Below, piece by piece: positions 3,474-51,235 of a stretch of 64,000 nucleotides of DNA. A program made the translations under genes and the position numbers. The first letter of the stretch is position 1. Every line of letters starts with the position of its first letter. Origin of the DNA: an uncultured Chloroflexia bacterium. Its GTDB lineage: Bacteria > Chloroflexota > Limnocylindria > Limnocylindrales > CSP1-4. The stretch is from NCBI GenBank assembly GCA_963743795.1, contig CAVUQZ010000003.1, positions 80,065-144,064 of the forward strand, given 5' to 3'. A model generated the notes under the pieces. That model did no database searches. It saw only the letters and a list, made by a program, of their open reading frames with translations, and was not told the origin of the DNA.

Positions 3474-3745
3474 GTGGTTCGCTCCGGCTGACGATCGCCG
3501 ATGACGCGACGCTCTTGGCCCAGCGTATCCTCGTTCGCGCTCGCCGTCGGTCCCAGGGCCCGCTCGTCCCGCCCGTCCGAACGGCCGCCGGGAGTCCTGT
3601 TGCCTCTACCGCGGTGACCGCTCTCGCCGCAGCACGTTCCCCGCGTCCCCTGGGCGTGCGAGAATTGCGGCCCAAGCCGCCCCAGAAGCCGATCGCAGAA
3701 GCTCCACCGCGTGCCAGCGGCCCGCCCCTGCCCGAGGAGACCAGA

Positions 3746-5158
3746 GTGACCGCCGCCAAGCCGAATTCCCCGGCCGACGATCCCGGACCAGCCGTAGCCA
3801 ATCTGGAAACGATCGTCTCGCTGTCCAAACGGCGCGGCTTCATCTTCCCGAGCTCGGAGATCTACGGCGGCATCAACGCCGTGTGGGACTACGGGCCACT
3901 GGGGGTTGAGCTCAAGAACAATGTCAAGCGGGCGTGGTGGCGGGCGATGGTCCAGGAACGCGACGACATCGTCGGCCTGGATGCAGGAATCATCATGGCG
4001 CCCCAGGTCTGGGTTACGTCGGGCCACGTAGCCAGCTTCAGCGACCCGCTCGTGGAGTGTCAGACGTGCGGCCGGCGCTATCGCCTCGACGAGCTGCCCG
4101 GCGCCGAGAACCTGACGAATACGGAGCTGGCCGACCCCACCGTGGTGGACCGTCTCGGGCTCAAGTGCCCCGCGGATGGCGGCCCGCTCTCGGCCCCGCG
4201 CCGCTTCAACCTGATGTTCAAGACTCATATGGGCCCGGTCGAGGAGGAGGGAAACGAAGTCTACCTGCGTCCCGAGACGGCTCAGGGCATCTACGTCAAC
4301 TTCCGCAACGTCCGCGAGACGAGCCGAAAGAAGCTGCCCTTCGGCATCGCCCAGATCGGCAAGGCCTTCCGCAACGAGATCAGCCCGGGCAACTTCGTCT
4401 TCCGAATGCGCGAGTTCGAGCAGATGGAGATGCAGTACTTCGTCAAACCGGAGACGGCGGCCGCCACGTTCGAGGAGTGGATGCCGCGCCGGAGAGCCTG
4501 GTACGAGCGGTACGGCGTAACGCCGGCCCGGCTGCGCTTCCGCGAGCACCGGCCGGACGAGCTGGCCCACTACGCCAAGAAGGCCGTCGATATCGAGTAT
4601 CGCTTCCCGTTCGGCTGGAAGGAGCTCGAGGGGATCCACAACCGCGGCGACTGGGACCTGGGCCGGCACCAGCAGGCCACCGGCGAGAACCTCGAGTACT
4701 TCGACCCGGCGACCGAGGAGCGTTACGTGCCCTGGATCGTCGAGACTTCGGCCGGCGGCGACCGCGCGGCCTTCACGTTCCTCATCGACGCGTACCGTGA
4801 GGAAGAGGTCCGCGGAGAGAAACGCGTCGTCCTCGGGTTCAATCCGGATCTGGCGCCGTACAAGGTGGCGGTCCTGCCGCTGCTGAAGAAGCGGGACGAG
4901 ATCGTGGACCTGTGCCACAAGCTCCGCGACGACCTGGCCAAGGATCTGCTCGCCGTCTACGACGACACGGCGGCGATCGGCAAGCTGTACCGTCGCCAGG
5001 ACGAGATCGGCACCCCGTGGTGCGTCACCATCGACGTCGACTCGCTCGAAGACGGCAAGGCCACCATCCGTGACCGCGACTCGATGGAGCAGATCAGGGT
5101 GGACGTCTCGCAGGTGAAGCCGATCGTTCTCGAGCGGCTGGCCGGGGCGCGAGGATAA
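3746..5158 (+). CDS. glyQS: Glycine--tRNA ligase (dimeric class II GlyQS type)
   Basis: 'LETIVSLSKRRGFIFPSSEIYGGINAVWDYGPLGVELKNNVKRAWW' and class II motifs. The ORF is open from 3515, but GTG 3746 with GAGGAGA 6 nt upstream fits the usual N-terminus. Confidence 0.9.
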   Translation: MTAAKPNSPADDPGPAVANLETIVSLSKRRGFIFPSSEIYGGINAVWDYGPLGVELKNNVKRAWWRAMVQERDDIVGLDAGIIMAPQVWVTSGHVASFSDPLVECQTCGRRYRLDELPGAENLTNTELADPTVVDRLGLKCPADGGPLSAPRRFNLMFKTHMGPVEEEGNEVYLRPETAQGIYVNFRNVRETSRKKLPFGIAQIGKAFRNEISPGNFVFRMREFEQMEMQYFVKPETAAATFEEWMPRRRAWYERYGVTPARLRFREHRPDELAHYAKKAVDIEYRFPFGWKELEGIHNRGDWDLGRHQQATGENLEYFDPATEERYVPWIVETSAGGDRAAFTFLIDAYREEEVRGEKRVVLGFNPDLAPYKVAVLPLLKKRDEIVDLCHKLRDDLAKDLLAVYDDTAAIGKLYRRQDEIGTPWCVTIDVDSLEDGKATIRDRDSMEQIRVDVSQVKPIVLERLAGARG

Positions 5159-21679: not shown

Positions 21680-21973
21680 TCAGCGGCCGCTGGCGATGTC
21701 CACGTACACCACCGAGCGATCTGTCACGTCCTGCTCCAGGTGGGCGACATAGCCGAGTGGCCATAGCTCCCGGTTGAGCGCCCTCTCGAGACCGGCGATG
21801 TGCCCGCATCCGAGCGCGCCTCTGGCCAGGGCGCCGCGAATCATCGGGTCGTCAAACGAAGGAACGTCCGAGCCGGCGCGCGCGGTCAATCCCCGACAAC
21901 CATCCTGATACCACGGCACCGGGCCGAGCTTCCTCAGGCCGGACGCACGTCGGGGCATAGACACCACAGCCAT
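21680..21973 (-). CDS. Hypothetical protein (97 aa)
   Basis: ORF with GC3-rich codons and a weak AGGAA SD. I recognise no family. Confidence 0.35.
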   Translation of the reverse strand: MAVVSMPRRASGLRKLGPVPWYQDGCRGLTARAGSDVPSFDDPMIRGALARGALGCGHIAGLERALNRELWPLGYVAHLEQDVTDRSVVYVDIASGR

Positions 21974-22154: not shown

Positions 22155-23450
22155 TCAGGCACCCGCCAGGGCTTCTCGCATGACGGCAAATGCCTGCTCG
22201 TGCTGGCCGGCGGCAGCGAGCGAGTCGGCCCATTCGCGCAGGGCTCTTCGAAGGAGGCTCGCGTTGCCGAGCTGCCGCGCGAGCTCGCCGGCGCGACGGT
22301 TCGACTCCAGAGCCGCCTCACGCTCACCGAGCCCCGCCTGGGCGTGGGCCAGAGTAAGCAGGGCGTCGACTGAGGCCTTGGCATTTCCGGCATGTTCGGC
22401 GAGAGCCAGGGCCTCCTGCGCAAGCGCCGCGGCACGATCCGCGGCGCCGCCAGCCAGCGCGATCCGTGCCTGGGTGTCGACGACGTGTGAAAGCAGCCAT
22501 TCGTCGCCCAGGGACTCGAGCCTGCCTCGGGAGGAGGCAGCGAGTTCGGAGGCCTTGCCGGTATTGCCAAGGGCGAGATACGAGAGGGCCAGGTCGTTCT
22601 CCAGGTTCGCCGAATCGCGGTCGGCCTCGACCTTCCGGAACAGCTCCAGGCTGGCGATGCCGGAACGCACGGCGCCCTCGAAGTCGCCGGTCTCGCGATA
22701 GCTGTAGGCGAGGTCGTGCAGATAGTTGGCCCGTCGGCGGTCGTCGAGAGAGCCGGCCAGGTCGCGAACTTCTTCGAGATATGCCAGGGCGGCCGCGTGG
22801 TTGTCCTCACGCGATTCGTTGCTCGACAACGCCATGACCAGGCGCAGCTCGAAATCCGGCTCGACCCGAACGCCCGACCGGACGCGCGCCAGGATGGACT
22901 GAAGGATTGCCTTTGACTCGGCGCAATTCTCTTGCTGGTACTGTGCCGCGGCCAACCAGTACTCGGCCAGAGCTGCCTCCGCCTCCCTGTTCGCGGCGTG
23001 GAGGATCCGGGCTGCCTCGGCGGCGAAGGCGGTAGCCTCGCGACCCCTGCCCTGGCGAACCATCGCCTCAGCCAGCCCGCTCATCAACTCCGCCCGGGAC
23101 TCGCGTGTGACGGCGGCCTCCAGGAGCCCGCGGTACGCGTCGATCGCATCGTTCCAGCGACCCGATGCCAGGGCCAGGTCCGCCTCGAGCCGGGCCCAGG
23201 CAGCGGGCTGGTCGTTGATAAGGCTGCTGGCGGGAATGCCGAGCCGGGTCGAGAGGTAGTTGAGCGCGGCCATGGACGGCCTGCTGAGGCCGTTCTCCAG
23301 GGCGCTGACGTAGGCCTTCGTATACCGGCCCTCGGCCAGCTGCTGCTGGGTGAGACCCGCGGCCAGGCGCGCCCGGCGAAGCCGTTCGCCGATCTGGCGG
23401 GCCAACGGTGAATCGTCTACTCGGGGACGGGTTCGACTTACTCGTGCCAT
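22155..23450 (-). CDS. XRE-family HTH transcriptional regulator with a roughly 350-aa TPR domain
   Basis: N-terminus 'IGERLRRARLAAGLTQQQLAEGRYTKAYVSALENGLSRPSMAALNYLSTRLGI'. The rest is repeated Ala/Leu-rich helical pairs (TPR-like). Confidence 0.8.
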   Translation of the reverse strand: MARVSRTRPRVDDSPLARQIGERLRRARLAAGLTQQQLAEGRYTKAYVSALENGLSRPSMAALNYLSTRLGIPASSLINDQPAAWARLEADLALASGRWNDAIDAYRGLLEAAVTRESRAELMSGLAEAMVRQGRGREATAFAAEAARILHAANREAEAALAEYWLAAAQYQQENCAESKAILQSILARVRSGVRVEPDFELRLVMALSSNESREDNHAAALAYLEEVRDLAGSLDDRRRANYLHDLAYSYRETGDFEGAVRSGIASLELFRKVEADRDSANLENDLALSYLALGNTGKASELAASSRGRLESLGDEWLLSHVVDTQARIALAGGAADRAAALAQEALALAEHAGNAKASVDALLTLAHAQAGLGEREAALESNRRAGELARQLGNASLLRRALREWADSLAAAGQHEQAFAVMREALAGA

Positions 23451-23524
23451 GGCGTGAAGTCTAGCGCCAAGCCGGCGCGTGTAACACGGCAGTGGTGCGC
23501 CCGCGCCCTCAGGTTTACAAATAC

Positions 23525-23553
23525 TTGACCAGGCTCCAGGCCGCTCATACGAT
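23525..23553 (+). promoter_or_regulatory. Candidate sigma-70-type promoter TTGACC-17 nt-TACGAT
   Basis: Read directly: -35 at 23525-23530 and -10 at 23548-23553. It points away from the regulator, toward the mini-ORF. Confidence 0.4.
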
Positions 23554-23617
23554 CTCCATGCCGATTGGCCGCACTGGCCCGGGCCTCGGGCGGGCGATTC
23601 CCGAAAGGAGTCGCTCG

Positions 23618-23741
23618 ATGTTCGCTCGCCTTATTAGCCTTCGCTACCCTCGTTGTCGCCTCGATTCTGAGTCTGGCCCTGGGTCTGGTCTCAGCGGCCT
23701 CGGCTCTGGCTGGTGGAGGTGGAACCTCCTTCCCTCACTGA
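23618..23741 (+). CDS. Mini-ORF encoding a signal-peptide-like or small hydrophobic peptide (needs a 1-nt frame correction near 23627-23636, or a TTG 23565 start)
   Basis: AAAGGAG lies 7 nt upstream of ATG 23618. The +1 frame from 23619 reads 'CSLALLAFATLVVASILSLALGLVSAASALAGGGGTSFPH*' (stop 23739-23741). The ATG frame itself gives an implausible Arg/Trp-rich peptide. Confidence 0.4.
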
Positions 23742-24112
23742 GTCGATCCCTGTTGCGCCGATGAGCGAAGCCGGCCCGCGGCCGGCCCGTTCACAGGTAG
23801 GTTACGAGCCCGTTCGCGTCCCGGGCCGGGGCGGCCGTCGACAGATCCACAGTTGTGCCCGTCCGAAGTCGACCCCCGCATGGGTAGCACGCGGGAATCG
23901 TCCCGCGTCGCAGTTTTCGGTGCCTGTCCGCACCGGCAGGTTCGCGGAGTCATTGCGTCGAGTAGGTCTGTCTGTCAGCCTCTACCTGTTGGCGGGTCCA
24001 GTCGATCGGAGGCCAAGTAGGCCATTCGGTCCACTCGTCCCAACCGTCCCTGACGGCGCCCAAGGGGGTTGTCCTTGGGCCGCAGACTCCTTGTCAGGGC
24101 CAGGAGCGAGAC

Positions 24113-24505
24113 ATGTTGTGGTCGCGGTCCGATCGTGATGCGCGGCGCCAGAAGGTGCTCGACGAACTCCTCGAGATGGATGCCGAGCATCGGCGTCGGA
24201 GACTCGATCTTGCGGTGGCATCCGGAGAAGTGCATTCGGACGAGATGACGGCGACGATGCAGCTCGTCACTCGTCTGGACGCTCTGCGGTTGATGAGCGT
24301 TCCCGCCGGGGGCAGGCTGCCAGGGGCGCGGAATTCCGTTCATCCGGCGCCGGTCGCTGTGGCCGTGGTCGAAGAGGAAGGCGCCTCGGGCCTCGCGGAG
24401 AACCTGGTAGCGCTCGAGATTGCTCTCCCGGCCGAGTCGGCCTCGGTGTCGAGCAGCGTCCTGACCGATGAGGGCGGGCCGAGCATCTCCTGGTTGAGAC
24501 CCTAG
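24113..24505 (+). CDS. Hypothetical acidic protein (130 aa)
   Basis: AGGAG lies 6 nt upstream of the ATG and the codons are GC3-rich. No recognisable family. Confidence 0.45.
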   Translation: MLWSRSDRDARRQKVLDELLEMDAEHRRRRLDLAVASGEVHSDEMTATMQLVTRLDALRLMSVPAGGRLPGARNSVHPAPVAVAVVEEEGASGLAENLVALEIALPAESASVSSSVLTDEGGPSISWLRP

Positions 24506-24578
24506 CCGACCTGCCGGCTGCGTCAGGGGGCGGTGCGAGGCCGTATTCGGTCGAGCCTCGTAGTCCGATCCTGGGGCT

Positions 24579-25082
24579 TCACGGCCTGCTCTCCGGGACC
24601 GAGGACGAATCGACCAGGCCCAATGCCTCCTCCAGCCGCTCGAGGAACGGAATCTGAGCCTCCTTGATGCGCTGACGGGCTTCTCCGGGGTTGAACCAGG
24701 CCACCCGGTCTATCTCCGGAAAGCTTTTGACGCGGCCGGTGAACGGCGGCCACGGTATCTCGATCATGTTGCTGGTCGCGTTGGCCGGATCGAGATCGCC
24801 CTCGACTGCCCAGGCATAGACGACTTTGCCGCCCTTCTGCCGCACCGAACCGAGGTCGAGCAAGGGGCCCGCTGGTACCGGATGGCCGGTCTCCTCCCCG
24901 AATTCGCGCCGGGCGGTCGCCTCGATCGCCCCGTCGTTGGGACCGCGCTCTCCTTTGGGAATCGACCAGTTGCCGAAGTCTTTGCGGCCGAAGAACGGGC
25001 CGCCGGGGTGGCCGAGCAGGACTTCGAGACGCCCGTCGCGAAGTCGATAGAGGAGGATGCCAGCGCTCGTTCGAGTCGTCAT
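24579..25082 (-). CDS. NUDIX hydrolase
   Basis: Nudix box 'GERGPNDGAIEATARREFGEETG' and N-terminus 'SAGILLYR...LEVLLGHPGGPF'. Confidence 0.85.
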   Translation of the reverse strand: MTTRTSAGILLYRLRDGRLEVLLGHPGGPFFGRKDFGNWSIPKGERGPNDGAIEATARREFGEETGHPVPAGPLLDLGSVRQKGGKVVYAWAVEGDLDPANATSNMIEIPWPPFTGRVKSFPEIDRVAWFNPGEARQRIKEAQIPFLERLEEALGLVDSSSVPESRP

Positions 25083-42397: not shown

Positions 42398-44371
42398 TTG
42401 ACCGTAGGTGTTGCCGCGGAAGTGAAGAGCAAGCTTTCGATCGTCGACGTCGTCGGCGAGGCGGTAACGCTCAAGAAGGCCGGCACGACGTACAAAGGGC
42501 TCTGCCCGTTCCACGGCGAGAAGACCCCGAGCTTCGTCGTGACCCCGTCCCGCGAGAGCTGGCACTGTTTCGGCTGCGGCGAGGGAGGGGACATCTTCAG
42601 CTTCGTCATGCGCCGCGAGGGATTGACCTTTCCCGAGGCTCTCAAGCGACTGGCCGCGAAGGCAGGGATCGAGGTCGACGAGCGGACGACCCGCGAGGAC
42701 GCCCGAAAGGCCCGGCTGCGCGAGGTTCTCGAGCAGGCGATCGCGTTCTACCACGCCGTCCTGACCCAGTCGAAAGTGGGCGCGCCCGCGCTCGACTACC
42801 TGCGCGGTCGGGGCTTCACGGACGAAACGATCGGACGCTTCCAGCTTGGGTGGGCCCCGGACGGCTGGGACCAGATGATCAAGATGCTCCAGAGCCGCCG
42901 CAACGCGACCCTGGCGGAGCTGGCCGAAGTGGGCCTCACGAGCCAGCGCTCGAGCGGGCGGGGCGCCTACGACAAGTTCCGCTCGCGCGTCATCTTTCCG
43001 ATTCGCGACGCGTCGGGGAACGCAGTGGGGATCGGTGGCCGGATCCTGCCGGCGACTGGCGCAACGGCGACGGTCCCGGATCCGAGCGCGCCCAAATACC
43101 TGAACTCGCCCGCGACTGCGCTCTTCGACAAGAGCCGGACGTTGTACCTGATCGAGCGAGCCCGCAATGAGATGCGCCGTCGCGAAGAGGCTGTCCTCGT
43201 GGAGGGCTACACCGACGCGCTGATGGCCCACCAGGCCGGCTTCGAGAACGTGGTGGCCAGCCTGGGCACGGCCCTCACGCCGGCCCAGGTCGCCCTTATC
43301 GCCCGCTACACGAACCGCATCGTCCTGGCCTACGACGTTGACCCGGCCGGCCAGCACGCTGGCTCGATCGGCGGGGCGGAGCTGTTCCACCTGATCGGGG
43401 CCCTGGCCGCGGAGGAGACAGGCGTCGAGATCACGCGGGTCCAGGTCGCCCGACTGCCCGAGGGCAAGGACCCGGACGAAGTGATCCGCGAGTCGCCCGA
43501 TCTCTGGCGGGAGGCGATCCGTACCGCCCAGCCGATCATGGAGTTCCTTATCGACTACTACGCCAACGCTTTTCCGGCGCGCACCGCCGAGGGCCGGCGC
43601 CATGCCGTGGGGGCACTGATTCCGCTGCTGCGCGAGATCCGGGATCCGGTAGTGCGAGACAGCTACCTTCAGGCCCTGGCTCGCCGGACCGGCGTGGAGG
43701 AGAGGGTTCTCCTGGAGGCGATGCGCGCCCCCACGCCTGCCGGAGGGTCGGCCCAGGACGGGCGATCGGGTCGCGGGGGATCCGGCGGCGGCCGCTTCAC
43801 GGCCGATGCGGTCATCTCCGCCCCGGACGCCCTGGATACGAAGGCCGAGCTGAGGGCGATCTCGAGCCACGAGCGCGACCTGCTGCGCTACCTGCTGCTT
43901 GTTCCGGAGCAGCAGGAACGCGTCGCCCAGATGCTCGCGGCCCAGGGAGCGCAACTCCCCAGCACCCCGGCGCGGGAGCTGCTGGCGGCGATGCTCGCCG
44001 ATCGCGAAATGGACCGCGAAGCGGGCGGAGGCGGTCGTTTCGAGCGTATGCGCTTTCTCGACGCGCTGCCGGCGGAGCTCCACGGTCTGGCGATCGCGCT
44101 CTACGCGGAACGGGGTCCGGATCCGAACGAGTTGAGCGGCGATCGCGTCCGTATAGGTGTTGATCAGTGCCTGCTGGCCCTCGAGGCGGACAGGCTCGAA
44201 GAAGAGATCCGATTCAATGCCGGTGAGCTCGTGGAGGCGCAGGCTGCCTCGGACACGCCGGCGGTCGCCCGACTGCTCGAACTACAACGCAATTTGAACG
44301 AGGCTCGCCGATCGCTCGATCGACGCAAGCAGGACGCGAGCCTTCTTGCTTCCGCTGGAGGACACCGATGA
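42398..44371 (+). CDS. dnaG: DNA primase
   Basis: Zinc finger '[30 protein letters not shown]' and TOPRIM '[16 protein letters not shown]'. TTG start with GGAG 7 nt upstream. Confidence 0.9.
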
Positions 44372-46092
44372 CAGACCCCCTTGACAAGCAGCTCGTTGAG
44401 GTTGCCCTCTCCGGCGGCGGCCGCCGCAAGGCGGACCTGGAAGAGGCCAAGCTCGCGGGCGTGCGCACGCCTCGAGGCCTCGCCGACGACGAGGCGCTCG
44501 ACGACGAGCTCATCTCGGACGACGACGAGGATGAAGTGGCGCCTGTTGACGCGCTCGATGACGACGCGGTCGACCTGGGCGTCGAGGTTGTCGAGGAGGA
44601 CATCCTCGTAGAACCGCACGTCCCCGGCGACGCTCCGGCCAAGCTGGACGCGGAAGCCCTGGAGGAGCCGACCCAAGAGGAACTGGAAGCCCTCTCCGCC
44701 GACATGATCGGGATCGACGACCCGGTCCGGATGTACCTCAAGGAAATCGGCAAGGTTGCGCTGCTGACCGCCGAGGAAGAGGTCGTCCTGGCGAAGGCCA
44801 TCGAGCTCGGCGAGCAGATGGTCGAAGACCCGGCGAAGGGCATCGTCTCGCTCCACGAATGGACGCACCACGAGACGGAGCGCAAGACCCGAACCATCAA
44901 GCCGCAGTACCAGCTGCCCTTCGGTCCAGAAGCCGCTCGAATGGTCGCCGACGCGGTCTCCTCCGAGGATGCCTCCGACCTGCTCGTTCCCACGCTCGAC
45001 TTCCACCTGATCAAGGCGGGCAAGGAAGCCACTACCGACGGTACCAAGGACCTGATCAAGGAAGGCCGCCACCTGGTCACGGCCTACAACGAATCGCTCA
45101 CAGCCGAGTCGTTCCTGAAGCTGCTCGACTGGGCCTACTTCGCCGTTCACAACGGGGACCTGGACTCGCGAGACAACACGGGCCTGCGGGCGATCTACGA
45201 CTGGACGCGCGACGCGGTGGCATACCCGGCCCTGCGGCGTTGGATCCAGACCGACCACGACGCGGATCTGTTGAAGCGCCTTGGCTTCGACCCGGAGGTC
45301 CCGCTCAACACCAAGCTGGCCCATCGCAGGGGCGAATTGGTGCGCATCGGCCGCGACGCTCGCGAGCAGCTGACGTCGGCCAACCTGCGGCTCGTGGTGT
45401 CGATCGCGAAGAAGTACATCGGCCGCGGCATGAGCTTCCTGGACCTCATCCAGGAGGGCAACATCGGCCTCATCCGAGCAGTCGAGAAGTTCGACTACGA
45501 GAAGGGCTACAAGTTCAGCACGTACGCCACGTGGTGGATCCGGCAGGCCATCACTCGCGCCATCGCGGACCAGGCCCGCACCATCCGCATCCCCGTCCAC
45601 ATGGTCGAGACGATCAACCGCCTGATCCGAGTCTCGCGAACTCTCCTGCAGGAGTTGGGCCGCGAACCGACGGTCGATGAGATCGCCGAGGCAATGAGCA
45701 AGGGCCAGGAGCAGGTCGTCACGCCCGAGAAGGTCCGCGAGATCATCAAGGTCTCCCAGGAACCCGTATCGCTCGAGACGCCGATCGGCGAGGAAGAGGA
45801 TTCGCACCTTGGCGACTTCATCGAGGACCGTGGCGCGCTGGCCCCGGCCGAAGCCGCATCCCACCAGCTTCTGAAGGAACAGGTCGAGGCGGTCCTCGAC
45901 TCGCTGACCGGGCGAGAGCGGCGGGTGCTTCAGCTCCGGTTCGGGCTGGAGGATGGGCGAGCTCGGACCCTGGAGGAAGTCGGCAAGGAGTTCAACGTCA
46001 CTCGCGAGCGCATCCGCCAGATCGAGGCGAAGGCTCTGCGCAAGCTGCGCCACCCCTCCCGCTCCCGCAAGCTGAAGGACTACCTGGAGTAG
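44368..46092 (+). CDS. rpoD: Primary RNA polymerase sigma factor (sigma-70/SigA) with an acidic N-terminus and a roughly 175-aa insertion between regions 1.2 and 2.1
   Basis: '[21 protein letters not shown]', '[60 protein letters not shown]' and '[14 protein letters not shown]'. The ATG overlaps the dnaG stop. Confidence 0.95.

Positions 46093-49393: not shown

Positions 49394-51235
<1,842 letters not shown>

What the first reader, a model, noticed from the sequence alone, without database searches (positions are those of the whole stretch)
22155..24505. XRE-HTH/TPR regulator divergent from a promoter- and SD-equipped mini-ORF encoding a signal-peptide-like pro-peptide (candidate RRNPP/Rgg-style peptide signalling cassette)
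**What the sequence shows.**
- The 431-aa regulator (22155-23450, minus strand) is an N-terminal XRE helix-turn-helix followed by about 350 aa of TPR-like helical repeats.
- The 167-bp divergent spacer holds a good TTGACC-17-TACGAT promoter (23525-23553).
- AAAGGAG sits 7 nt before ATG 23618.
- Read in the ATG frame, the ORF gives Arg/Trp-rich nonsense.
- One nucleotide over, it reads 'LALLAFATLVVASILSLALGLVSAASALA|GGGGTSFPH*'. That is a hydrophobic h-region, an AxA-type cleavage context and a 9-11-aa tail.
- Joining the ATG to that frame needs a 1-nt indel, of the kind seen at least 9 other times in this window. Alternatively the peptide starts at TTG 23565.
- Downstream lie about 370 nt with poor coding signal, containing the hairpin CGCGGGA-ATCG-TCCCGCG at 23890-23907. 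After that comes a 130-aa acidic ORF with its own AGGAG SD.

**Why it is interesting.**
- The size and architecture of the regulator match cytoplasmic peptide receptors such as NprR, PlcR and Rgg.
- A receptor next to a short exported pro-peptide gene, divergently arranged as in Rgg/SHP and PrgX/PrgQ, is the hallmark of RRNPP-type quorum sensing.
- As far as I know, characterised systems of this type are from Bacillota, not high-GC lineages.

**Alternatives.** The mini-ORF could instead be a small single-TM membrane protein or a type-I-toxin-like peptide.
Basis: partly seen in the sequence, partly recalled or inferred. Interest (0 to 1): 0.7.

Follow-up and report, generated by a model that had tools for sequence, protein, structure and literature searches.

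The report
Peptide-signal and receptor gene pair
A DNA-binding regulator with a peptide-binding-type repeat domain sits back-to-back with a 40-residue exported mini-protein gene, and the pair is conserved across a whole class of soil and peat Chloroflexota, which looks like Bacillus-style peptide cell-to-cell signalling in a phylum where it has not been described.

Summary
The regulator at 22155-23450(-) has an XRE helix-turn-helix domain followed by 18 helices, about 9 TPR repeats.

Relatives settle the reading frame. In 69 of 75 related loci from Candidatus Limnocylindria (Chloroflexota), a 37-41-aa ORF lies divergent from the regulator. It nearly always starts at ATG and has a strong Shine-Dalgarno site. 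It encodes a basic N-terminus, a hydrophobic core and an invariant A-x-A site. After that comes a conserved tail, [GD]GGG[TPG]x[FYW]P[HRK].

The window's copy carries one extra base (A23646) compared with its 96%-identical relative, whose 40-aa ORF is intact. TTG 23565 is not the conserved start.

The pair meets all five operational criteria for RRNPP-type quorum sensing. The regulator matches only generic TPR and HTH profiles, so homology to known RRNPP receptors is not shown. Peptide binding and peptide import were not tested.

The 130-aa ORF is an accessory neighbour, not part of the pair. Other clades carry a third gene, a small stand-alone HTH protein, between the peptide gene and the regulator.

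Verdict: a well-supported candidate for an RRNPP-like cassette outside Bacillota, judged from genome sequence alone.

The parts
22155..23450 (-). Receptor/regulator gene, 431 aa: XRE-type HTH (about residues 15-78) followed by 18 helices, about 9 TPR-like repeats.
   Evidence: ORF. Pfam HTH_31, HTH_3 and TPR_12. The AF2 model has mean pLDDT 89.4, with helices listed. Orthologues keep a constant 431-aa length in Limnocylindrales MAGs. The HTH recognition helix K45-E52 is at least 95% conserved across 58 regulators of 43-100% identity.
23458..23463 (-). Possible -10 box (TAGACT on the minus strand) 7 nt upstream of the regulator's ATG. This would make the regulator mRNA leaderless. No Shine-Dalgarno site precedes the ATG.
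   Evidence: The TAnACT positions are invariant in 7 aligned orthologues (columns 8-13). This is inferred from sequence; the promoter scan did not call it.
23513..23530 (+). Conserved AT-rich box GTTTACAAATACTTGACC, which includes the -35 hexamer (23525-23530) of the peptide promoter. It is a candidate operator.
   Evidence: The box is unique in the 64-kb window even with 3 mismatches allowed. It is conserved as GTTTA(C/G)nAATACTTGAC(C/T/A) in most loci of all clades. Clades without the small HTH gene keep it at the DNA level, so coding on the opposite strand does not explain it.
23548..23553 (+). -10 hexamer TACGAT of the peptide promoter. The inferred transcription start is near 23560.
   Evidence: Found by the promoter scan. 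TA(C/G)nnT is conserved 17-18 nt after the -35 across loci.
23604..23610 (+). Shine-Dalgarno site AAAGGAG, 7 nt before ATG 23618.
   Evidence: AAGGAG or GGAGG lies 6-9 nt upstream of the start in the relatives.
23618..23741 (+). Pro-peptide gene, 40 codons in relatives. In the window it is interrupted by one extra base at 23646. Corrected product: MFARLISLR(S/T)LVVASILSLALGLVSAASALA|GGGGTSFPH.
   Evidence: Orthologue alignments. Indel list. Corrected translation. Family table. Coding selection. The protein database holds 202 clusters of 38-69 aa (nearly all 39-41), all unnamed or 'hypothetical'.
23646..23646 (+). Extra A, the frameshifting insertion relative to orthologues. It is either an assembly error or a real mutation that abolishes the peptide.
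   Evidence: It is the only frame-breaking indel in coding sequence within the 7.3 kb shared with L081.
23712..23738 (+). Predicted mature peptide GGGGTSFPH, the nine residues after the invariant A-x-A site (A31 is codon 23709-23711).
   Evidence: A31 is invariant, and position -3 is A or V in all 27 clade-A members analysed. P39 is invariant. All carry synonymous changes. The tail motif is conserved in all clades. Cleavage itself is inferred.
23770..23786 (+). GC-rich hairpin GCCGGCC-CGC-GGCCGGC about 30 nt after the stop codon. It is the likely end of the peptide transcript; it has no U-tract.
   Evidence: Consensus fold of 15 loci. The stem is nearly invariant (G-C to G-U changes only), so there is no covariation support.
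23808..23835 (+). Second conserved GC-rich stem, GCCCGyyCG...CGGGGCGGC.
   Evidence: The sequence is conserved but no compensatory changes were seen.
21680..21973 (-). 97-aa ORF of unknown function about 180 nt downstream of the regulator on the same strand. It is conserved only in the window's clade and is a possible co-transcribed or target gene.
   Evidence: tblastn hits in 28 related loci at 47-97% identity. GC by codon position is 0.70/0.54/0.78, like the regulator. No Pfam or NCBIfam match.
24113..24505 (+). 130-aa ORF, an accessory neighbour rather than a core part.
   Evidence: Its N-terminal ~65 aa is conserved in 14 loci and in L081. It is absent from L001-L005 and L080, where a convergent NUDIX-HAD gene fills the space. 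No Pfam match.

Best explanation
This is a receptor/pro-peptide signalling pair that works like the RRNPP quorum-sensing systems of Bacillota.

**Shown here**
- The 40-aa gene is real and under selection as a protein.
- It has its own conserved promoter and Shine-Dalgarno site.
- It is almost always paired, divergently, with the HTH + 9-TPR regulator.
- Its C-terminal tail differs between regulator clades.

**Inferred**
- The pre-peptide is exported by Sec. Signal peptidase I cuts after the invariant A-x-A site and releases a 6-10-residue peptide. In the window this would be GGGGTSFPH. The active core may be the last five residues, [TPG]-x-[FYW]-P-[HRK].
- The peptide accumulates outside the cell and is re-imported by an oligopeptide permease.
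- It binds the concave face of the TPR superhelix of the regulator.
- Binding changes how the invariant HTH engages the conserved AT-rich box at the peptide promoter (autoinduction) and unknown further targets.

In this particular genome the peptide gene is either mis-assembled by one base or truly broken. If it is broken, the cell would be a listener that makes no signal.
For: - **Architecture.** The regulator matches HTH_31, HTH_3 and TPR_12. The AF2 model (pLDDT 89.4) shows an HTH plus 18 helices.
- **Conserved adjacency.** 69 of 75 loci carry a 37-41-aa ORF divergent from the regulator; 62 start at ATG and 7 at GTG, each with a Shine-Dalgarno site. The reverse test held in 3 of 3 look-ups.
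- **Coding selection.** The codon-position pattern is 12.4/9.2/19.6 and pN/pS is 0.47. R9, A27, A31 and P39 are invariant with synonymous turnover.
- **Signal-peptide anatomy.** The basic N-terminus, a hydrophobic stretch of about 15-20 residues, A or V at -3 and A at -1 are conserved in every clade.
- **Clade-specific tails.** The tails are T-x-[FY]-P-[HR], G-G-P-P-[FWLI]-P-[RHK], G-G-[SP]-[FY]-P-[RHK], Q-T-P-Y-S-H and G-G-G-[TD]-W-P-x-x-x. Two different types occur in one MAG, SPRUCE 351 (L008 and L038).
- **Dedicated promoter box.** It is conserved across clades and unique in the window. The HTH recognition helix is invariant.
- **Structural neighbours.** They include PlcR with its peptide (3u3w, E 5e-7) and the Rap proteins of phage phi3T, pLS20 and RapI (TM 0.51-0.58 normalised by query). 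A sequence profile hits RapH TPRs (5.6e-6) and the PlcR and ComR HTH domains.
- **Operational signature.** All five RRNPP criteria of PMC10075063 are met.
Against: - No RRNPP-specific profile is hit; only generic TPR and HTH families match.
- The best fold matches are eukaryotic LGN/Pins TPR scaffolds, and the viral library gave only generic TPR proteins. Common descent with RRNPP receptors is therefore not shown.
- The tail is unusually conserved across a whole class. Known systems diversify into pherotypes.
- Six related loci lack the mini-ORF: L033, L050, L052, L055, L063 and L064.
- No oligopeptide permease was found, but only ten of the window's roughly 50 ORFs were screened.
- Covariation between peptide and receptor residues was confounded by phylogeny.
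- No signal-peptide predictor or co-folding could be run.
- All evidence comes from uncultured MAGs.
Confidence: 0.55

Rival explanations
1. The mini-protein is a secreted or surface effector with its own function, such as an antimicrobial, adhesive, metal-binding or envelope peptide. The neighbouring regulator only controls its expression in response to some other ligand. The peptide never returns to the cytoplasm.
For: The tail is strongly conserved across a class, with P39 invariant and an aromatic residue at position 38. That fits a fixed molecular target better than private communication. The regulator matches only generic TPR families.
Against: Tail type tracks the regulator clade, and two types coexist in one MAG. 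This is what receptor-ligand pairs do. A mature product of 6-10 residues, mostly glycine, is very small for an effector. No modification or export genes are linked.
Confidence: 0.2
2. The mini-protein is not cleaved. It is a single-pass membrane micro-protein (N-terminus inside, tail outside). It modulates or tethers the regulator through its short basic cytoplasmic N-terminus, or it senses something outside the cell through its tail.
For: The N-terminal residues R4, S7 and R9 and several core positions (W15, L21, P25) are as conserved as the tail. Residues 10-31 form a 22-residue apolar stretch that could span a membrane.
Against: Small residues at -1 and -3 are invariant, and a Pro or Ser lies about 6-7 residues before the site. 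This is the classic signal-peptidase I context and is kept in every clade. A 9-residue cytoplasmic stub is a poor TPR ligand compared with a free peptide.
Confidence: 0.1
3. The mini-ORF is a regulatory leader or secretion-monitoring (arrest) peptide. Its translation or export controls a downstream gene, in the manner of SecM, MifM or TnaC.
For: It has an N-terminal export signal and a C-terminus ending in aromatic-Pro-(basic)-stop. In one clade the tail contains Pro-Pro. Motifs of that kind can slow ribosomes; this last point is from general knowledge and was not tested here.
Against: No conserved co-directional downstream gene exists. The 130-aa ORF is missing in the closest clade members, and convergent genes follow in others. 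A conserved GC hairpin follows the stop codon. This reading does not explain the pairing with a TPR regulator.
Confidence: 0.05
4. The mini-ORF is a small hydrophobic toxin, either type I or the toxin partner of an XRE-type antitoxin.
For: It is a short hydrophobic ORF beside an XRE-family HTH protein. NCBIfam gives a weak HipB-like HTH hit at 27 bits against a cut-off of 72.
Against: The genes are divergent, not co-transcribed. The pair is vertically conserved as a chromosomal gene pair next to housekeeping genes rather than patchy and mobile. The mini-ORF has an A-x-A site and a conserved hydrophilic tail. The 350-aa TPR domain has no role in such systems. Rfam found no antisense RNA family.
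Confidence: 0.03

Closest known systems
NprR-NprX of the Bacillus cereus group (RRNPP; an HTH plus 9 TPR receptor with a Sec-exported pro-peptide)
   Same: The receptor architecture and size are alike: an XRE HTH plus about 9 TPRs in 431 aa, against about 420 aa for NprR (from my own knowledge). The pro-peptide is a small (about 40-aa) product of an adjacent gene with an N-terminal Sec-type signal. The inferred active part is a short unmodified peptide from the C-terminal region.
   Different: No detectable specific sequence homology was found. The genes here are divergent, each with its own promoter, rather than peptide downstream of receptor. The phylum is Chloroflexota. The tail is conserved class-wide. 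Many clades add a stand-alone small HTH gene.
PlcR-PapR (RRNPP)
   Same: PlcR is the only solved structure among the listed fold hits with the full HTH+TPR architecture (3u3w, bound to peptide and DNA, E 5e-7). The PlcR HTH is also the best bacterial sequence hit in the PDB (4e-6). PapR is likewise Sec-exported with a C-terminal active peptide (from my own knowledge).
   Different: PlcR has 5 TPRs and 285 aa. The TM-score is only 0.35-0.40 normalised by query. The PlcR box is a clear palindrome, whereas no conserved palindrome was found here.
Rap-Phr and phage or plasmid Rap proteins
   Same: They give the best global superpositions among bacterial proteins (phi3T Rap TM 0.51-0.58, RapI 0.55, pLS20 Rap 0.52). 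RapH TPRs are a sequence-profile hit (5.6e-6). Phr pro-peptides are Sec-exported and the active form is a C-terminal pentapeptide (from my own knowledge).
   Different: Rap proteins lack the HTH and act on protein partners. The phr gene lies downstream and overlaps rap.
Rgg-SHP and PrgX-PrgQ (divergent RRNPP pairs)
   Same: The receptor and peptide genes are arranged divergently. In clades with the small HTH gene, the peptide promoter lies inside the oppositely transcribed gene. This recalls overlapping divergent transcription at prgQ/prgX (from my own knowledge).
   Different: Rgg and PrgX are about 280-320 aa with 5 degenerate repeats. SHP and PrgQ peptides lack a Sec signal and use PptAB/Eep. 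Here the receptor has 9 canonical TPRs and the peptide has an A-x-A Sec-type signal.

Membership tests
RRNPP-type quorum sensing (operational signature of PMC10075063) | Pro-peptide is small (10-100 aa) | tested here: met
   37-41 aa in the 69 related loci. The window's copy is 40 aa after the one-base correction.
RRNPP-type quorum sensing (operational signature of PMC10075063) | [quoted passage not shown] | tested here: inconclusive
   A check by rule is positive: 2-3 basic residues at the N-terminus, an apolar core, A or V at -3, an invariant A at -1, and G, D or Q at +1. No predictor (SignalP or DeepTMHMM) was available. There is no lipobox Cys and no conserved twin-arginine.
RRNPP-type quorum sensing (operational signature of PMC10075063) | Receptor is 250-500 aa | tested here: met
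   431 aa, and the length is constant in orthologues.
RRNPP-type quorum sensing (operational signature of PMC10075063) | Receptor carries TPRs | tested here: met
   TPR_12 at 1.4e-11, above its cut-off. It is found in 26 of 26 family members. The AF2 model shows 18 helices after the HTH.
RRNPP-type quorum sensing (operational signature of PMC10075063) | Receptor and pro-peptide genes are direct neighbours | tested here: met
   They are 167 nt apart in the window. They are adjacent in 69 of 75 loci. In the clades with the longer gap, one small HTH gene lies between them.
RRNPP(A) receptor superfamily (common descent) | Detectable sequence or fold homology to Rap, Rgg, NprR, PlcR, PrgX or AimR beyond generic TPR/HTH similarity | tested here: inconclusive
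   PDB profile search: PlcR HTH 4e-6, RapH TPR 5.6e-6, ComR HTH 2e-4. Foldseek: PlcR 5e-7 and Rap TM up to 0.58, but LGN/Pins TPRs rank first. Pfam at E<=10 lists only generic TPR_x and HTH_x families. The viral library gave no AimR-like hit.
RRNPP-type quorum sensing (mechanism) | Mature peptide is imported by an oligopeptide permease and binds the receptor's TPR groove | not testable with these tools
   Co-folding was not possible under the tool's input rule. None of the ten window ORFs screened is a permease. A genome-wide search was not possible.
Rgg-SHP | Receptor of about 280 aa with 5 degenerate repeats; hydrophobic peptide without a Sec signal, exported by PptAB | tested here: not met
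   The receptor is 431 aa with about 9 canonical TPRs. The peptide has a Sec-type A-x-A signal and a glycine-rich hydrophilic tail.
Toxin-antitoxin (XRE antitoxin or type I toxin) | Co-transcribed pair, or an antisense RNA; patchy, mobile distribution | tested here: not met
   The pair uses divergent promoters. It is conserved class-wide in a core chromosomal setting that includes dnaG, rpoD and leuA. There was no Rfam hit.
Secretion-monitoring or arrest leader peptides (SecM/MifM type) | A conserved co-directional downstream gene under the ORF's control | tested here: not met
   Downstream content varies. A conserved hairpin follows the stop codon.

The most novel reading that the evidence does not exclude
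This is the first RRNPP-type, cytoplasmic-receptor peptide quorum-sensing system outside Bacillota. It would be vertically inherited across the class Limnocylindria (Chloroflexota), with paralogous clades that each pair a receptor with its own tail variant. As an HTH + 9-TPR receptor with a Sec-exported pro-peptide, it would be one of two things. It could be a distant outgroup able to root the RRNPPA receptor tree and settle whether the 9-TPR or the 5-TPR form is ancestral. PMC12700828 states that this question is open and needs such an outgroup. Alternatively it could be an independent invention of the same logic.
Probability: 0.45. Interest if true: 0.8.

Novelty: new variant of a known kind. 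Interest (0 to 1): 0.7.

Why it matters
Peptide signalling through cytoplasmic TPR receptors is treated in the literature as a trait of Bacillota and their plasmids and phages.

- The largest survey searched only Firmicutes and viruses (PMC10075063).
- A search of 73 RRNPP papers from 2023-2026, and searches pairing RRNPP with Chloroflexi or Actinobacteria, found no report from another phylum.

Limnocylindria are abundant and almost entirely uncultured in peat, fen, soil and freshwater. Many of the MAGs here carry names such as 'fen', 'SPRUCE' and 'MFD'.

A conserved, simple and synthesisable 5-10-residue signal would give a direct experimental handle on the behaviour of these organisms. It would also extend the known range of this signalling logic, and it could supply the missing outgroup for the evolution of the RRNPPA family.

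The unannotated 40-aa family (202 database clusters, all unnamed or 'hypothetical') also shows how such genes escape annotation.

Tried and rejected
- **Rfam scan.** A scan of 23400-24200 at E<=1 found nothing.
- **Terminator scan.** No canonical terminator was found. The post-stop hairpins have no U-tract.
- **Palindromic operator.** A search of five intergenic regions found no conserved inverted repeat in the promoter region, only GC-rich palindromes in the 5'UTR (one search was a syntax error).
- **5'UTR and post-stop consensus folds.** Stems are predicted but show no compensatory changes, so they are neither supported nor refuted.
- **Peptide/receptor covariation.** Mutual information across 58 pairs gave top pairs that mark clades. 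The result is confounded by phylogeny and was not used.
- **Viral fold library.** It returned only generic TPR proteins of giant viruses.
- **Source contig.** A look-up of the window's own regulator found nothing on record, so read support for A23646 cannot be judged.
- **Co-folding.** I considered fusing the tail to the regulator for a structure prediction.
- **TTG 23565 as start.** Rejected. Relatives use the ATG with a Shine-Dalgarno site. The apparent protein-level similarity upstream of it reflects conserved 5'UTR DNA.
- **Tat signal.** Rejected. The second Arg is present in only 10 of 27 clade-A members.
- **Lipoprotein.** Rejected, because there is no Cys after the signal.
- **RiPP precursor.** Rejected, because no modifying enzymes are linked.
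- **The 130-aa ORF as a third component.** Rejected, because it is absent in the closest clade members.


Full report
**1. What is in the sequence**

The minus-strand ORF at 22155-23450 encodes 431 aa. It matches HTH_31 (8e-9), HTH_3 (3e-7) and TPR_12 (1.4e-11, above its cut-off). An AlphaFold2 model built on 79 homologues has mean pLDDT 89.4. It shows a five-helix HTH region (residues 15-78) followed by 18 helices of 13-18 residues, which is about nine TPR-like pairs.

The 167-nt spacer (23451-23617) holds the only promoter-like site in 23300-24700. This is TTGACC-17-TACGAT at 23525-23553, where 0.1 sites are expected by chance. AAAGGAG at 23604-23610 precedes ATG 23618 by 7 nt.

The +1 frame reads ...LALLAFATLVVASILSLALGLVSAASALAGGGGTSFPH*. 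The hairpin at 23890-23907 and the 130-aa ORF at 24113-24505 with its AGGAG are also present.

**2. Origin**

The regulator has 1,719 database relatives at E<1e-5. The top 120 are almost all exactly 431 aa, and the named ones come from Candidatus Limnocylindrales. This order belongs to Chloroflexota, class Candidatus Limnocylindria.

An exhaustive profile search finds only 164 clusters (at 50% identity) with E<1e-30, so the family is compact. A genome scan returned 80 loci from Chloroflexota MAGs, mostly from peat, fen and soil. I added the locus of the 96%-identical relative as L081.

Ten other window ORFs include dnaG, an rpoD-type sigma factor and leuA. The setting is therefore core chromosome, not a mobile element.

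**3. The frame is settled by relatives**

In six orthologues at 83-89% regulator identity, and in L081, the ATG homologous to 23618 opens an uninterrupted 39-40-codon ORF. Examples:
- L081: MFARLISLRSLVVASILSLALGLVSVASALAGGGGTSYPH
- L003: MFARLFSIRTLVVAWILGLALALIPLASALAGGGGTIYPR

The window differs by one extra base at CGCT**A**CCC, position 23646. Removing it gives MFARLISLRSLVVASILSLALGLVSAASALAGGGGTSFPH.

Across the 7.3 kb that aligns to L081 at 96.5% identity, this is the only frame-breaking indel inside coding sequence. It could be a lone assembly error or a real peptide-null allele. I cannot tell which, because the source contig is not on record.

TTG 23565 is not the conserved start.

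**4. The mini-ORF is a real, conserved gene paired with the regulator**

A profile built from the first peptides found a matching ORF in 69 of the 75 related loci that have at least 600 nt upstream of the regulator.
- Lengths are 37-41 aa, with 38 of 70 exactly 40 aa.
- Starts are ATG (62) or GTG (7).
- AAGGAG or GGAGG lies 6-9 nt upstream of the start.

Among 27 clade-A genes of equal length:
- Pairwise differences per codon position are 12.4/9.2/19.6.
- pS is 0.55 and pN is 0.26.
- R9, A27, A31 and P39 are invariant while accumulating 0.5-0.7 synonymous differences per pair.

The reverse test also holds. Three peptide proteins called independently by gene finders (P0289, P0350, P0301) each lie divergent from an HTH_31/TPR_12 gene.

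The protein database holds 202 clusters of this peptide. Nearly all are 39-41 aa. All are unnamed or 'hypothetical', carry no Pfam domain, and where named come from Limnocylindrales. Neither Pfam nor NCBIfam knows the peptide.

**5. Anatomy of the peptide**

All clades share the same plan:
- an N-terminus with 2-3 Arg or Lys;
- an apolar stretch;
- often Pro or Ser about 6-7 residues before the site;
- A or V at -3, a bulky residue at -2, and an invariant Ala at -1;
- a short tail.

Tails differ by clade:
- Clade A (the window's): [GD]GGGTx[FY]P[HR]
- Clade B: G[GS][GS]GPP[FWLI]P[RHK]
- Clade C: [GD]G[GAT]GG[SP][FY]P[RHK]
- Clade D: GGGTWPI(RF/HL) and GGGDWPLRR
- Clade E: DGGGT[PVL][FIL][PA]H
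- Clade F: QTPYSH

The common core is small residue, x, aromatic or aliphatic residue, Pro (or Ser), basic residue. The residue before the aromatic is hypervariable.

Peptide types follow the regulator tree. One MAG, SPRUCE 351, carries both a clade-A and a clade-B cassette, with tails GGGGTDFPR and DGGGPPFPR.

Cleavage after Ala31 is an inference from the (-3,-1) rule. No predictor could be run.

**6. Regulatory DNA**

The peptide promoter is conserved as GTTTA(C/G)nAATACTTGAC(C/T/A), then 17-18 nt, then TA(C/G)nnT. It lies 75-105 nt before the ATG in most loci of all clades. The 18-mer is unique in the 64-kb window even with 3 mismatches allowed.

The HTH recognition helix (K45-E52) is at least 95% conserved across 58 regulators that are only 43-100% identical overall. 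That fits a conserved operator, and the AT-rich box is the obvious candidate. I found no palindrome.

Two GC-rich stems follow the stop codon, at 23770-23786 and 23808-23835. Their sequences are conserved but show no compensatory changes.

The regulator's ATG has no Shine-Dalgarno site. An invariant TAnACT lies 7 nt upstream, which suggests a leaderless mRNA. This is inference only.

**7. A third gene in other clades**

Where the gap between regulator and peptide gene is 331-426 nt (clades B, C, E and F, and some single loci), it contains a stand-alone XRE-HTH protein of about 89-120 aa.
- It is co-oriented with the regulator, and its stop codon overlaps the regulator's start.
- One copy was called by a gene finder with HTH_31 and HTH_3.
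- It is a paralogue of the regulator's own HTH, at 37-44% identity and E 1e-12 to 1e-17.

Its first codons (GKSSIAKQ) are the reverse complement of the conserved promoter box. In those clades the peptide promoter therefore lies inside the oppositely transcribed gene.

The window's clade lacks this gene but keeps the box at the DNA level. The box therefore has a DNA-level function.

**8. Neighbours that are not core**

The 130-aa ORF has a conserved N-terminal domain of about 65 aa in 14 loci and in L081. It is absent from the closest clade members, where a convergent NUDIX-HAD gene occupies the space.

A 97-aa ORF (21680-21973, minus strand) downstream of the regulator is conserved throughout clade A only. 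It looks coding by GC at each codon position but has no family match.

**9. Comparison with known systems**

PMC10075063 defines RRNPP systems operationally by five criteria:
- a pro-peptide of 10-100 aa;
- Sec export of that pro-peptide;
- a receptor of 250-500 aa;
- TPRs in the receptor;
- adjacent genes.

Four are met outright. Sec export is met by rule but not by a predictor.

Homology is another matter.
- The PDB profile search gives PlcR (HTH only, 4e-6), RapH (TPR, 5.6e-6) and ComR (HTH) among generic TPR proteins.
- Foldseek ranks eukaryotic LGN/Pins TPRs first (1e-9). PlcR with peptide and DNA follows at 5e-7. Rap proteins give the best bacterial global superpositions, with TM 0.51-0.58.
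- Pfam at E<=10 shows only generic TPR and HTH families for all 26 members tested.
- The viral library adds nothing.

So the pair works like an RRNPP system by every sequence-level criterion I could test, but membership by descent is unproven.

The nearest analogue in architecture is NprR-NprX: an HTH plus 9 TPRs with a Sec-type pro-peptide. Rgg-SHP does not fit, because its receptor size, repeat number and export route all differ.

**10. Novelty**

The surveys and reviews I could search treat RRNPP(A) systems as belonging to Bacillota and their mobile elements. The large screen covered only Firmicutes and viruses. Searches pairing RRNPP with Chloroflexi, and Limnocylindria with quorum sensing, returned nothing relevant.

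PMC12700828 notes that rooting the RRNPPA tree, and deciding between a 9-TPR and a 5-TPR ancestor, needs a remote outgroup. This family is a candidate.

**11. Verdict**

- The mechanism (export, cleavage, re-import, TPR binding, autoinduction) is inferred. I give it about 0.55.
- The main rival is a secreted effector that the regulator merely controls, at about 0.2.
- The window's own copy is broken by one base, and the cause is unresolved.

Noticed in passing
L038 about 3549-3827, L084 3682-3906, and the 331-426-nt gaps of L028-L031, L034, L035, L037-L049, L051, L053, L056-L058, L066, L070, L073, L075-L079: In most clades other than the window's, an extra stand-alone XRE-HTH gene of about 89-120 aa lies between the regulator and the peptide gene. 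It abuts the regulator, and its 5' codons overlap the peptide promoter box on the other strand. It is a paralogue of the regulator's own HTH (37-44% identity).
   Followed up: partly
window 21680-21973 (-): A 97-aa ORF of unknown function lies about 180 nt downstream of the regulator on the same strand. It is conserved (47-97% identity) in 28 related loci of the window's clade only. Its GC pattern by codon position is typical of coding sequence. It has no Pfam or NCBIfam match.
   Followed up: partly
window 24113-24505 (+): The 130-aa ORF has a conserved helical N-terminal domain of about 65 aa (RRQKVLDELL...RLDALR) and a variable low-complexity tail. It is present in 14 loci and L081 but replaced in the closest clade members. 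It has no family match.
   Followed up: partly
window 23458-23463 (-) and 23448-23450: The regulator's ATG has no Shine-Dalgarno site. An invariant TAnACT lies 7 nt upstream in 7 orthologues, which suggests a leaderless regulator mRNA.
   Followed up: no
window 23770-23786 and 23808-23835 (+): Two GC-rich stems downstream of the peptide stop codon have conserved sequences. Neither has a U-tract and neither shows compensatory changes. Whether they act as terminators or protein-binding sites is unknown.
   Followed up: partly
window 23595-23622 (+): The consensus fold of the 5'UTR pairs GGGCGA(T/C) with GTCG(C/T)(C/T)C around the Shine-Dalgarno site. Only G-C to G-U changes are seen, so the pairing is unproven.
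   Followed up: partly
window 23618-23741: The corrected mini-ORF has much lower GC at third codon positions (0.59) than neighbouring genes (0.77-0.80).
   Followed up: no
L008 and L038 (both from MAG SPRUCE 351): One genome carries two cassettes of different clades with different tails, GGGGTDFPR and DGGGPPFPR. In L008 the start position reads CTG instead of ATG.
   Followed up: partly
L033, L050, L052, L055, L063, L064: Six related regulators (52-59% identity) have no detectable mini-ORF nearby, despite at least 600 nt of flank (1500 nt examined in five of them). In L063 the divergent position holds a 54-aa hydrophobic ORF of a different kind (MLQYLISLIKRDERGQGLAEYALILALIAV...).
   Followed up: partly
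L053 (DATIUS010000113.1): This 9.4-kb contig carries a clade-F cassette typical of Chloroflexota. Its MAG is labelled Candidatus Sulfomarinibacteraceae (Acidobacteriota). It is probably mis-binned.
   Followed up: partly
L084 2367-3906 and L085 2301-3819: In these assemblies the regulator's own precomputed Pfam list shows TPR families but no HTH, while the small upstream ORF carries the HTH hits. The cause could be the small HTH gene, a degenerate HTH in the regulator, or incomplete precomputed hits. I did not resolve this for these two loci.
   Followed up: no
L001 2270-3562 (+): The NUDIX gene that is separate in the window (24579-25082) reads through as a 430-aa ORF joined to a HAD-like hydrolase segment. 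This ORF is convergent on the mini-ORF.
   Followed up: no
window 42398-46092 and 49517-51235: A dnaG primase gene followed by an rpoD-type sigma factor gene, and a leuA gene, mark the window as core chromosome. The long ORFs across the window look intact.
   Followed up: partly
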